A DNA stretch of 64,000 nucleotides. Source: Eledone cirrhosa. Taxonomy: Eukaryota. The notes beneath the pieces were generated by a model. It was not told the origin of the DNA and did not search any database. It worked only from the letters and a program-made list of their open reading frames with translations. Position numbers and translations under genes: made by a program. This document shows positions 39,691 to 60,237 of the stretch, piece by piece (position 1 is the first letter of the stretch; each line of letters starts with the position of its first letter). The stretch is from the NCBI GenBank assembly GCA_964016885.1, contig OZ024742.1, positions 355,508,001 through 355,572,000 on the forward strand, in the 5' to 3' direction.

Positions 39691-42616
39691 GAGATACGAT
39701 CTGGATGACCCGATGCGATTTGTCCATGTCCACATTGGCACATTCGGGTGATGCAGTCGATACCTGTCAGAGAGTTCAAAACGTCTAAGCTGGTTGGTGA
39801 GGCTCTTGCACTCTCCTCCCCTATCCACTAGCCCCACACAATCCCAGCGTGCATCCAATATACCGCTCCAGTCGCCCACTAACACTAAAGAACGGGACGT
39901 TCCAATAAAGGTCTCTAGACGTCTGAAGAAATCTGGCCGTCCTGCCCCAGTTGGGACGTACTAGCCTAAAAGCGTTGCCTTCGCTGCCGGTCACTTCCAG
40001 CAGCACCGACTTACCTTCTGGGTCCAGGAAGATGGCTGTAGTGCGAGATGCAAGCCTCTCCGAAAAAGCATGGCAACACCTCCACCAATCCTGGACGGCT
40101 GGGAGATGCTTATATATCGTAGCCGCCGAAGATCGGTGCGAAGGCTTGTTCTTCGGAGATTCTGGTCTCGCTGATGGCCACCACATCTATGTTTAGTAAC
40201 CTGAGGTCCTTGAGCAGGTGACCCTGCTTCCAAGATGAGCCCCAGATCACGTGCATTTATACTGCCTATTTTAAGTACGGCCATGTTGGATGAGAAACGG
40301 AGCAAGTGAGAAAGGGTCACTTACCTTGATCGTGTGGTGAAGGGACAGTAGAACCGTCCCTTTGGCTGGTGATGGGTGTTTCCAAGAGAATGTCAGTGTA
40401 TATCCTCTTGGTAACCGAGACTCTAAAGTCGCCAACTGCGTTGGGGAATCTTTGTTTCAAAAGTGTGTACTGTTCTATTTTGAAATCAAAGATGCTTATG
40501 TTTATCGGGAGAGTTATTGATGTTGGTGGGGTGTAGTAGTTTTGTTTCTGTGATATCTGTGTGCTGCTTTATATGTTATATGAGTTCTTTATGTGCCATG
40601 TTTATGGCTGTGTGCTTTTGGGGGGAGGGGTGATTTTGTTGCTGTTTTCTTCTTGTTGCTGTTGAGTGTGTGTTTTGTTGTGTTTGCGTTGTTGGTGTTT
40701 TTGGTGTTGCTGGTAGTGGTGTGGTTGTTGGTGTTGGTGGTGCTTGTGGTGCTGATGGTGATGGTAGCGGTGTTGCTGAAAGTCTCCTTGCAGCCTTTTC
40801 CCCTCTTTGTGTTCCTTCGCTTTTGAAGGGTGAAGCTAAGGGTTTTTTTCTTTTTTTCTTTTTTGTGGCAGACCGATTGCCACTTCACTCCCGCCTCAGA
40901 CTCCATGTCGGATTCCGTGGCGTCTGGGAGGGGTGTGTGCTCTACGGCTGTTGGTGGTGGTAGTGGAGCCCACTCAGGCGATTTTCTTGCTGGTGTAGCT
41001 ACTGCAAATGTAGCTACTGGTGTTGCCGCCACTGATGCTGCTGCCTAGTTGTCCGTGGCCTTGGTACGGGTGCCACGGACGTTGCCCCCCTACTAACTGT
41101 GGAAGGGGCTTCTGCGTTTGTTTACCTGCCCTGCTCTTGGCAGCAGATGACCAGGTAATGGAAGGAGAGGGGCTTTCTTCTTCGCTGTCTTCTGCGCACA
41201 AAAGGCCCTGAGGTGACCCTTTGACCCACATAGATAACATTTTGGCCCTCTTTCTTCCACGCTTATAGGAAGTTGGAGTCCTTCCTCGATGTCTATGATA
41301 TCGGGTATAGCGTCTATACATTCCTGGTCAGTTTGTATAAGCATTAGCATGCCTATAGCTGACCAATTCTCTCTCCCTATTTTCTCTACTTGCAGCATGG
41401 TCGTCCTGTTCTCGATTCCAGTTCCAGCAAAGACAGACGCGGCCAGCCAAGGTATGGGCACGTCTGGTGGGACCTGGGTCACTTTGACCCTCACAATTTT
41501 CTTCCCGCAGTAGGAGGGCACCAATACTATATCCTTACTCTTTATGGTTTGCCAAGAGCGAGACGTCACTTCTTGGGGGTGGCGAAATGTACGTCTACAG
41601 TGGCGTACTTTTTGCCTCGGATGATGTGGGGTTTGCGCGCCCAGACGCACCCCAAAGCATTTTGGATTTGAGACTCCGTGGCTCTCTCCACCCGATGTGA
41701 CATTTTACTTACGGTGCGGTAAATAACCGTCCGTAGCTGTTGGTCCTTGAAAAATTCCGGATGGAGGTTTCAGGGAAACTCTATTGGCGTTTCTTGTAAC
41801 CATGGCCCTTGCGACTGCCATCTCCTCCTCTGTGACTAACACTGTTTCTATATTCCGGGCGACACCTGAAAAAGAAGTGGTCCCTTTTTTAGAGGCACCA
41901 CTATTGCTGCCAATACTGGTCTTGTTGGTGGTGCTGAGATCGCTGTTACAGGTATCGATCTCATTATTGATATTTTCGTTGGTACTGTTGTTAGTGTTGT
42001 TGTTGTTGTTTTCGTTGATACTGTTGCTGTTGTTACTGTTATTGTGGCTGTTGTTATTATTGTTGTTTTTGTTGATAGTGTTCCAACTATTATTGTTGTT
42101 GTGGCCGTTGTTATTGTCATTGTTATTGTCATTCTCGACCTTTCTGCTCTTATTTTTGTTGTTGCTGTTGTTATTGGAGGTGTTGTTGTTGATGCTATTG
42201 TTGGTGTTGTTTGTGTTAGAAATATTTGGTAATTTTAAATCTGTAACAATATCATTAAAAATGCTATTGTTCCTCTTTTCCTTCGTAATATTTTCTTTTA
42301 TATTTACCTTCGCTAGAACGCTGTTTTTTTTATATGTAGAGAAACTCTCCCTCACTCTGTATTGTCTGACAAAGCTCTCTCTCTTTTTTGTGTTATCCAT
42401 GTTGAAAGAAACTTTTTTTTTTAAATATTATTTTTACACAATACGACACCCCGTAAAGGGGTGCCGTATTATTTACGAGTGAACCACTGTATTAGGTGAG
42501 TCACTTCTTCTAAACTTTTATCAAGTTTAAAACTTTAATAAAAGGTTTAGAACGGTTGAAAATGAGGTAGACCGTTGAAAAAAACAGGAGGCGATAAGAA
42601 GTGTGGCTTCACCTTC
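39690..42616 (-). mobile_element. Tx1-like element, 5' half (ORF1 plus APE domain), degenerate
   Basis: Asn-rich ORF1 with VPSYCGKK and CYLCGSKGHLRAFC; ORF2 start MAVLKIGSINAR (40284); GDWS; 5' end abuts (TAA)n. Confidence 0.9.
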
Positions 42617-42642
42617 AATAATAATAATAATTATAATAATAA

Positions 42643-58100: not shown

Positions 58101-60237
58101 GCCTGTGCCTCTGAGATTCTGATCTCGCTGATGGCCACCACATCTATGTTTAGCGACCTGAGATCGTTCAGCAGGTGCCCCTGTTTCCAAGACGATCCCA
58201 GGCCACATACATTTATGCTACCTATTCTGAGAGTAGCCATGTTGGCTAGGATAGGAGGAAAACAAGTGAGAGGGGAGAGGTAAAAAAAACATTACCTGTG
58301 GCTCTTCTTTAGGAAGGGGGTGGGTGATCCATCCCTCCGACCATTGGTGGGTTTCTCCACGAGAATATCCGTGAATATTTTGTTGGTGTTGTTCCCTCGG
58401 TAGTCTCCAATTGATGTGGGGAACATTTTTTTTATGTTATGTATGTTTGTGTGTGTGGGGGGTGCATTTTGGTGGTTTGTACGTAGTTTGTTTCTGTGAT
58501 GTTGGTGTGGTGGTGAATGTAATTAAAAAGCTTTATGTTGTCTGTGTCTATGGCTGTGTATTTTGTCTGCTGTTTCGGTGTTGGTGTTTTCTGTGTTTGC
58601 TGTTGTGTTGTTGGAGGTGACGATGGGGTAGATGGTAAGGTTGGTGGTGGTGATGGTGTAGGTGGTTGTAGGTGTGTGGCTGTTTATGGTGGGGTAATTT
58701 TCATTTTATTTTCTCTTAAGATTCTTTCTTCCTCTTTTTTTGAGGGTAGGGAGTTCTTCCTTTTTTTTCGATGGAATAGTCCTCCACACTTCGGCCTCAT
58801 CGCACTCCTTGCCCGATTTGACTATATCAGGAAGGAGTATGCTTTCCATTGGTTTTGTGGGTGGTGGAAGAGATGGTGTTTTTGTTGTTGGGGATGGTGA
58901 TTTCTCTTCTGCCACTGTGTTCTTTGTTTGTTTGTCTGCACCAGTTGCGGGGCACGGCCTGGGGAGAAGGTGTAGGCGCGTGCCTGTTTTGGTAATTTTG
59001 GGGCAGACTGTCTTAAGGTGCGTCTTGTCACCGCATCCATGGCACCTTGGACGCCTACCTTCGACAGGCACGCGTAGATGGCTGCAGTCGTCCAGGTCTA
59101 TTATATCGGGGATGGCCTCAACGCTTACGTGGTTTGCTTGGATGATTAGCTCAATCTCCGACCCTGTTCAATTTTCCTGTCTTATTCGTATGACGTTGAG
59201 TATAGTAGTTGAATCTTCAACGACAGCGAGGTCGGCTGCCGTCAACCACGCCATCTCCACTGAGGGTGGAACCTGTCCTACGCGAGCCCTCGCGACTCTC
59301 TGGCCGCAATGTGTGGGCATCATTGTGATTTCGTCGCTTCGGAATGGTGCGATGGAGCGTGCTCTGGCTTCCAATGGTGTATCGAAGAGCACAGCCACAG
59401 TCACATATCTCGATCCTATGGCTATATATGTTTTCTGTGCCCAGACGGCACCCATAGCTCTTTGGATCTGTGACTCCGTTGCCCGTTCGACTCGCCTAGA
59501 TTTTGATTTGATCCGATCGTGCGATAACTGACCGAACACAAAAGCTTGTTTCATATTATCTCAGCTAGGCGGATGAGACTTACTCTGTGTCCGGTTTTTT
59601 TAACCAAGACCTTTGCTTGTTTTATCACTTCGTTAGTGATGTTTATTTGCTGAAACTTGTTGGTCGCTTTAGCGAAAGACGTGTTTGTTTTGATTTGTGT
59701 TGACTCATCACTAGTTTTGTCTTTGTTGCCGTCGTTGGTGTTTTTGTTGTTTTTTGTTCCTCTGTCTTGCTGCTGTTATATATGTTATTATTTGGGTCCT
59801 CTGTGGTTGTTGCTGTTGTTATTGTTGTTATTGGGGTGGTAGTGATGTTTGATTTCTGTAACGCATGACATTTTTCGATATAATTTTCGCTACTGCTACT
59901 ACAGTTCCAATAGCTGCTGCTGCTGTTGTCATTACCACTGTCACTGTCGCTGCTGTCGCTATTTCTCTTGTTTTTTACTTTACCTTGTGATTGGGTGGAA
60001 ATGGCTGTTCTACCCTCTGAACAACTCTGTTGTTCTTCTCTGTGGACAATTTTGTTTGTCCGCCATGTTTAATTTTTTTTGTTATGGGATTATGATTGTA
60101 AATAAAAGCAAACTTAGCCCTCAAGGGCGCGAGATACAGTTAACAAAAAAACAACCTTCTTTGAAAGAGGGGATCTTTAATTACACACCGATGTAAACAT
60201 TCAACGAACTTACTCCGCCGTAGTTATCGCCGTTTTG
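55144..60237 (-). mobile_element. Full-span degenerate Tx1-like element between two (TAA)n tracts
   Basis: ORF1 (VEGRRPRCHGCGDKTHLKTVC); ORF2 from 58240 (MATLRIGSIN...TDH...LDQSKAFD...YADD...CPRC); internal deletion near 55983. Confidence 0.92.

What the first reader, a model, noticed from the sequence alone, without database searches (positions are those of the whole stretch)
40284..58298. Inter-ORF splice donor is conserved in two more diverged Tx1 copies, in different codon phases
Seen (minus strand): AAG|GTAAGT at 40324 (40 nt before ATG 40284) and CAG|GTAATG at 58295 (55 nt before ATG 58240), each followed by a pyrimidine-rich spacer. Relative to ORF1 the three donors are in phases 0, 1 and 2, although indels could have shifted phase. 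Both other 3' ends read TGTCTG-TAA-ATTAAAG|GTGG (42880, 55382), a weaker possible acceptor 7 nt past the stop. Inference: selection acts on the RNA signal. An alternative is a U1-binding site that suppresses premature polyadenylation without splicing.
Basis: partly seen in the sequence, partly recalled or inferred. Interest (0 to 1): 0.72.

Follow-up and report, generated by a model that had tools for sequence, protein, structure and literature searches.

The report
Conserved splice donor closing LINE ORF1
Three related jumping genes (LINE retrotransposons) in this octopus-like genome, and a distant sister family, keep a strong splice-donor signal exactly where their first gene ends, which likely lets them skip the second gene to make a short message for the first protein, although no spliced RNA has been seen.

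Summary
The donors are real: GAG|GTAAGT (36301), AAG|GTAAGT (40324) and CAG|GTAATG (58295) rank 1/267, 1/130 and 4/264 among GT sites of their elements for U1 pairing. Shuffles that keep the stop codon reach them in 0, 1 and 15 of 3000 trials. A sister family at 41% ORF2 identity (host DNA in bin G001) has the same AAG|GTAAGT just after the ORF1 stop, in non-coding sequence. It also has a second strong donor at the ORF2 stop. One other sister family lacks the ORF1-end site, and 0 of 15 distant LINEs have it within 70 nt. The 'three codon phases' argument fails: intact relatives read Gly-Lys (phase 1), and copies A and C carry frameshifts. The proposed acceptors at 42880 and 55382 score poorly and come from one family. 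Best reading: a conserved U1-bound donor that likely splices ORF2 out part of the time, giving ORF1-only mRNA while unspliced RNA is copied, as in Ty1/Copia shGAG. Splicing is not shown: no processed copy was found and no read test was possible. U1 binding without splicing remains a close rival.

The parts
32580..38300 (-). Copy A: near-complete L1/Tx1-type LINE in a (TATC)n repeat; ORF1 with CCHC knuckle, ORF2 with endonuclease, RT and zf-RVT; frameshifts in base runs
36296..36304 (-). Donor GAG|GTAAGT at the end of ORF1 of copy A; strongest U1 site of the element (1/267)
36263..36295 (-). Pyrimidine-rich spacer of A ending in ATA at the position of the ORF2 ATG of B and C
32813..32837 (-). 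ORF2 stop TAG of A with a pyrimidine tract before it; best acceptor-like site downstream of the donor (1/264), weak as a donor (18/267)
39690..42620 (-). Copy B: 5' part of a sister family (ORF1, spacer, first ~600 nt of ORF2); its own 3' end is absent
40317..40327 (-). Donor AAG|GTAAGT of B overlapping the last codons Gly-Lys-stop (phase 1); strongest U1 site of the copy (1/130)
40284..40316 (-). Pyrimidine-rich spacer of B and ORF2 ATG (40284); no AG in the spacer
40009..40017 (-). Second AAG|GTAAGT inside ORF2 of B, not kept in C; taken as a chance match
42645..45030 (-). Copy D: 5'-truncated ORF2 plus 3' UTR, 88-91% identical to C, head-to-tail before B through an (ATT)n tract
42874..42889 (-). 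ORF2 stop TAA and AAG|GTGG of D: weak acceptor (21/160), weak donor (9/146)
42729..42754 (-). Stronger acceptor-like site in the 3' UTR of D (2/160); the AG is absent at the same place in C
55150..60230 (-). Copy C: full-length but decayed element between (ATT)n tracts, with an internal ORF2 deletion
58290..58298 (-). Donor CAG|GTAATG of C (4/264), overlapping a TAA in the frame as read
58240..58289 (-). Pyrimidine-rich spacer of C with an acceptor-like AG at 58246 (not shared by A or B) and ORF2 ATG (58240)
55376..55391 (-). ORF2 stop TAA and AAG|GTGG of C: weak acceptor (24/229), weak donor (18/264)
53780..55120 (-). Copy E: 5' part of ORF1 of another sister family, head-to-tail after C; no spacer present

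Best explanation
These L1/Tx1-type LINEs keep a strong 5' splice-site motif at the end of ORF1 that is predicted to bind U1 snRNP and likely serves part of the time as a donor, skipping ORF2 to an acceptor at or beyond the ORF2 stop, which would give a short ORF1-only mRNA while unspliced RNA makes ORF2 and is copied. Shown: the motif, its rank, its place at the ORF end, its survival in a family 41% identical in ORF2, a second donor after ORF2 in both G001 families, and unspliced genomic copies. Inferred: U1 binding, splicing, the acceptor used and the benefit (excess ORF1 protein; a junction near the stop would escape nonsense-mediated decay). As in Arabidopsis EVD, the same U1 site could also affect 3'-end formation.
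For: Rank 1/267, 1/130 and 4/264 in window copies A, B and C; rank 1-4 of 365-378 in 5 of 5 units of the main G001 family; none of 15 distant loci has a site better than rank 53 within 70 nt of the ORF2 start. Window and G001 elements form one 13-row clade with support 100 (FastTree). In G001 the motif follows the ORF1 stop and is invariant in 33/33 distinct sequences, the next base varies three ways, and four-fold sites vary at 25/49 (ORF1 tail, frame uncertain) and 12/56 (ORF2 head). The ORF2-end site of G001 keeps GT.AGT in 28/28 distinct 3' regions with A/G at +3, as the donor consensus allows; the second G001 family has CAG|GTAAGT 40 nt after its ORF2 stop, rank 1/351. All these donors overlap an ORF end or lie within about 40 nt of one. 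The best or second-best acceptor-like site downstream lies at or after the ORF2 stop in A, D and 5 of 5 G001 units scored. Precedent: Ty1/Copia shGAG (PMC5580714, passages).
Against: No spliced product seen. In G001, 72/72 ORF1 ends in overlapping loci continue into GTAAGT, 40/40 scored ORF1 ends (of 72 candidates) adjoin an ORF2 start, and 49/49 3' regions keep the segment after the second donor, as do 5'-truncated copies. The acceptor ranking does not discriminate: 6 of 9 distant loci also have a top-two acceptor in their U-rich 3' UTR. The acceptor is not positionally conserved, and C lacks the AG seen in D. ORF2 is not depleted of competing strong U1 sites (A 3 vs 2.4 expected; G001 2-5 vs 2.6-3.8). 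The second G001 family lacks the ORF1-end site. One distant locus (L014) has a rank-1 site 95 nt upstream of ORF2. In human L1, splicing makes dead ends (PMC5860796, abstract).
Confidence: 0.4

Rival explanations
1. The motif binds U1 without productive splicing, to stabilise or retain the full-length RNA or to tune 3'-end formation: the ORF1-end site shielding cryptic poly(A) signals in the A-rich ORF1, the ORF2-end site damping the element's own poly(A) signal.
For: No processed copies; no conserved acceptor; a spliced 3' UTR would keep the conserved hairpin downstream and might be copied, yet none is seen. U1 represses premature termination in EVD (PMC5580714, passages).
Against: ORF2 holds only 0-2 AATAAA/ATTAAA in this clade, and only one lies within 1.2 kb downstream of any ORF1-end donor. 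Upstream signals are absent within 1.2 kb in B and L046. It does not explain why the sites sit at stop codons.
Confidence: 0.3
2. Not a U1 site: an inherited Gly-Lys ORF1 ending, or part of a stop-restart signal for ORF2 translation, that happens to look like a donor.
For: B and three database ORF1s end in Gly-Lys. In G001 the frame after the stop reads Gly-Lys-Trp-Asp to a TGATG overlapping the ORF2 start, and the second G001 family uses a TAATG in frame with ORF2 and has no donor, like SART1 UAAUG coupling (PMC3894237, passages). The bases between motif and ATG in G001 are also mostly invariant.
Against: In G001 the motif is after the stop; the codons are exactly GGT AAG T; a second donor-like site follows ORF2 in two families, non-coding in most variants, with variation only where U1 tolerates it.
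Confidence: 0.17
3. The spacer is a mini-intron whose removal fuses ORF1 to ORF2.
For: C has a good acceptor-like AG 50 nt after its donor (1/229); each window spacer has a pyrimidine tract with a YTCAC.
Against: B has no AG in the spacer and its first AG scores -4.7; A's AG scores -5.5 and depends on the ATA at the start position; in G001 the donor is 13 nt from the ATG and lies after the ORF1 stop.
Confidence: 0.05
4. Chance persistence by shared ancestry without selection.
For: Single AG|GTAAGT matches occur by chance (40014; five on the minus strand of the window); the copies are related.
Against: Flanks are unalignable while the motif stays; stop-aware shuffles give 1/3000, 15/3000 and 44/3000; the motif spans a long branch.
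Confidence: 0.08

Closest known systems
Ty1/Copia shGAG strategy, Arabidopsis EVD (PMC5580714; passages seen)
   Same: A retroelement 5' splice site near the end of the structural-protein gene; unspliced RNA as template; U1 both promotes splicing and represses premature termination.
   Different: EVD is an LTR element with one gag-pol ORF, a short intron and early polyadenylation, shown in RNA. Here ORF1 has its own stop, the predicted skip covers all of ORF2, and nothing is shown in RNA.
Tx1-clade LINEs such as Kibi and Koshi (PMC4494074; passages seen)
   Same: Two ORFs, APE-type endonuclease, RT, microsatellite targets, tandem insertions.
   Different: Targets here are (TATC)n and (ATT)n; no conserved donor at ORF ends appeared in the passages or searches seen.
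Human L1 splicing and SpIREs (PMC5860796; abstract seen)
   Same: Functional donors and acceptors inside a LINE RNA.
   Different: L1 splicing is in the 5' UTR and ORF1 and yields dead ends; here the donor closes ORF1 and is conserved across a deep clade.
SART1 UAAUG translational coupling (PMC3894237; passages seen)
   Same: A signal at the ORF1/ORF2 junction; the second G001 family has TAATG in frame with ORF2.
   Different: In window copies the motif is 36-55 nt upstream of the ORF2 start and gives no in-frame restart.
HAL1 ORF1-only elements (recalled; search listing only)
   Same: An ORF1-only RNA is the predicted product.
   Different: No ORF1-only genomic copy was found here.

Membership tests
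L1/Tx1-type non-LTR retrotransposon | ORF2 with APE endonuclease, RT and C-terminal zinc-binding region | tested here: met
   Pfam Exo_endo_phos, RVT_1 and zf-RVT (the last below its cut-off) in copy A
L1/Tx1-type non-LTR retrotransposon | ORF1 with CCHC zinc knuckle | tested here: met
   C-x2-C-x4-H-x4-C in A, B and C; zf-CCHC above cut-off in relatives P0151 and P0168; no Pfam hit for the window ORF1 pieces
Tx1 clade specifically | RT groups with reference Tx1 elements rather than L1 | tested here: inconclusive
   Tree holds no named Tx1 reference; it only shows a well-supported clade of window and G001 elements
Tx1 clade specifically | Target preference for repeats | tested here: met
   A flanked by (TATC)n; B, C, D and E start or end in (ATT)n; five copies only
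Copia-like subgenomic splicing | Conserved strong 5' splice site at the end of the structural ORF | tested here: met
   present in 4 of 5 families seen as DNA
Copia-like subgenomic splicing | Conserved partner acceptor | tested here: inconclusive
   candidates at or after the ORF2 stop, but also in 6 of 9 control loci
Copia-like subgenomic splicing | Spliced structural-gene-only RNA detected | not tested
   no RNA holder listed and no read data obtained; no processed DNA copy in G001
UAAUG/UGAUG stop-start coupling | ORF1 stop overlaps the ORF2 start codon | tested here: not met
   not in window copies A, B or C; met only in the second G001 family

The most novel reading that the evidence does not exclude
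A deep clade of animal LINEs runs a retrovirus-like split between genomic and messenger RNA: alternative donors at the end of ORF1 and of ORF2 splice to a 3'-UTR acceptor to give ORF1-only and two-gene mRNAs, while only unspliced RNA, which keeps conserved cis blocks of the 3'-UTR intron, is reverse transcribed.
Probability: 0.25. Interest if true: 0.78.

Novelty: new variant of a known kind. Interest (0 to 1): 0.52.

Why it matters
How LINEs balance ORF1 and ORF2 proteins from one two-gene RNA is an open question, and LINE splicing is usually seen as harmful to the element. A donor kept at the ORF1 end across a clade whose ORF2 proteins are only 41% alike points to a selected use of U1 by a non-LTR element, parallel to Copia gag splicing. 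It gives an exact junction to look for in cephalopod RNA data. If U1 binds without splicing, it is still an undescribed control element of these transposons.

Tried and rejected
No whole genome is held for the window. Sequencing-run search: no RNA holder listed, which is no evidence either way; no read data were obtained, so splicing in RNA is untested. Viral contigs held no relative. An ORF1 word search among longer proteins found nothing; a C-terminal profile search gave 6 proteins, 5 of them already in the profile. Rfam found nothing in five G001 loci. A full maximum-likelihood tree did not finish; FastTree was used. Rejected: phase diversity as proof of RNA-level selection; 42880 and 55382 as two independent or good acceptors; a spacer mini-intron; depletion of internal donors (none); splice-like junctions in truncated G001 units (the junctions keep the GT side and fit 5' truncation); a spliced-leader mimic (the sequences before the two G001 donors share nothing). 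Rows dropped: of 44 metagenome loci, 17 showed an ORF2 N-terminus; L016 (no upstream DNA), L024 and L026 (start uncertain) were left out and L080 was added, giving 15 controls, of which L004/L080 and L019/L020 are near-duplicates. The acceptor score is a crude matrix with recalled weights, not a trained model.
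Full report
What is in the window. Five pieces of related LINEs lie on the minus strand: A (38300-32580, nearly complete, in (TATC)n), B (42620-39690, 5' part), D (45030-42645, 5'-truncated, head-to-tail before B), C (60230-55150, decayed) and E (55120-53780, 5' part, after C). ORF2 of A has endonuclease, RT and zf-RVT domains. The nearest named relatives are from Argonauta hians and Octopus species, so the host is taken to be an octopod (inference). D and C are 88-91% identical, B and C 81% in ORF2, A and D 73%.

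The observation. Scored by predicted pairing with the U1 5' end (11-mer recalled), they rank 1/267, 1/130 and 4/264 of all GT sites in their elements. Shuffling the spacer window reaches that strength in 0, 1 and 15 of 3000 trials, with the ORF1 stop held fixed in B and C. Other windows of the same elements do so in 0/539, 0/267 and 21/482. Near any stop triplet, a site of -10.6 kcal/mol or better occurs in 1-4% of cases. The motif is an island of identity in unalignable flanks. One chance match inside ORF2 of B (40014) shows that a single hit means little; the position and recurrence carry the weight.

The phase argument. As read, the phases are 0, 1 and 2. But A has frameshifts in A-, C- and G-runs, and C is decayed. 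A conserved C-terminal ORF1 domain lets the ends be compared. Of six proteins with a strong match to it (five distinct), three end in Gly-Lys within the last eight residues, as B does; background is 4.3% of 8-residue windows. Of the others, two are one gene whose tail looks frameshifted and one stops inside the domain; three weak matches do not end in Gly-Lys. Gly-Lys is the phase-1 reading of G|GT AAG. A and C are each one base away from it. Some of these proteins are gene models and their DNA was not seen, so this is inference. Different phases are therefore not evidence.

Independent DNA. A scan of prokaryote genomes found one bin (G001) that carries 55 near-full-length matches among 89 to a related ORF2, in tandem arrays; this is animal host DNA of unknown origin. 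These proteins are 41% identical to A and form one clade with the window elements (13 rows, support 100, FastTree). In the main family AAG|GTAAGT follows the ORF1 stop directly and lies 13 nt before the ORF2 ATG. It is invariant in 33/33 distinct sequences and the next base varies, while four-fold sites vary at 25/49 and 12/56. This is modest support on its own, since the bases before the ATG are mostly invariant too. It ranks 1-4 of about 370 in 5 of 5 units. Unexpectedly, a second strong donor lies at or 14 nt after the ORF2 stop; GT.AGT is kept in 28/28 distinct 3' regions with A/G at +3. A second G001 family (49% identical to the first) has CAG|GTAAGT 40 nt after its ORF2 stop (1/351) but no ORF1-end site; there a TAATG couples stop and start in frame. 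So 4 of 5 families seen as DNA have the ORF1-end site. None of 15 distant loci has a comparable site within 70 nt of the ORF2 start (best rank 53); one has a rank-1 site at -95.

Acceptors. Better candidates are the stop TAG of A (1/264), 42729 in D (2/160; AG absent in C) and 3'-UTR sites in G001. But 6 of 9 control loci also have a top-two acceptor in their 3' UTR, so this adds little. A spacer mini-intron is excluded by the 13-nt spacer after the stop in G001 and by poor AGs in A and B.

Is it spliced? Not shown. No RNA run was listed and no reads were laid. No processed copy exists among 72 ORF1 ends and 49 3' regions in overlapping G001 loci; 5'-truncated units keep the segment after the second donor. 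Tandem arrays may be homogenised as DNA, which weakens that test. ORF2 is not depleted of strong internal sites. The anti-polyadenylation idea has no conserved target: ORF2 has 0-2 signals, and upstream signals are absent in B and L046.

Mechanism. I commit to a U1-bound donor used part of the time to skip ORF2, giving ORF1-only mRNA, with unspliced RNA as template (0.4), mainly because the sites sit at ORF ends in both lineages. U1 binding without splicing (0.3) is close, and the two can coexist, as in EVD (PMC5580714, passages). That the motif is a selected U1 site at all is about 0.7.

Novelty. Ten literature searches showed no description of a conserved donor at LINE ORF ends. The library lacks most subscription papers, Repbase entries and the Zenodo consensus set of PMC13282606. 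Seen: passages of PMC13282606, PMC4494074, PMC3894237 and PMC5580714; abstracts of PMC5860796 and PMC1636488 (TART antisense introns). The element class is known; the signal is a new variant, with function unproven.

Noticed in passing
G001 (loci L045-L087, L095-L098): A GTDB genome labelled as a bacterium contains tandem arrays of animal LINEs (55 near-full-length ORF2 matches among 89): host contamination of the bin.
   Followed up: partly
window 36481-36660, 40350-40568, 58334-58522; P0075, P0081, P0082, P0151, P0168, P0221: A conserved C-terminal ORF1 domain ending in an FP-x-DVG-like motif, shared by the octopod and G001 lineages, with no Pfam match.
   Followed up: partly
window 38300-38340, 32500-32580, 42620-42645, 55120-55150, 60230-60290: Family-specific microsatellite targets: A in (TATC)n; B, C, D and E in (ATT)n, with head-to-tail pairs D-B and C-E.
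   Followed up: partly
window 36263-36265: ORF2 of the otherwise near-intact copy A has ATA where B and C have ATG; a mutation or a non-AUG start.
   Followed up: no
L058:5785-5806; L074:8420-8440: G001 main family: TGATG overlapping the ORF2 start lies in the ORF1 frame five codons after the TAA stop. Second family: TAATG in frame with ORF2, SART1-like coupling.
   Followed up: partly
L058:3105-3200: Conserved predicted hairpin in the G001 3' UTR just downstream of an acceptor-like TAG; only one-sided changes, no compensatory pairs.
   Followed up: partly
L058:2893-2906: Invariant 15-nt block with three AG dinucleotides 35-50 nt after the ORF2-end donor, after a U-rich tract of variable length.
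   Followed up: no
L061, about 1534 nt before the ORF2 start: One G001 subfamily has a perfect CAG|GTAAGTAT inside ORF1.
   Followed up: no
L014, 95 nt before the ORF2 start: A distant LINE has its strongest U1 site near the apparent ORF1 end; chance or convergence.
   Followed up: no
window 61159-63740 (+), 29694-30632 (+), 13280-15160 (+): Other retroelement remnants: an RT fragment at 63072-63740 (Pfam RVT_1) and two pieces that resemble Penelope-like elements (recalled resemblance; the one scanned gave no Pfam hit).
   Followed up: no
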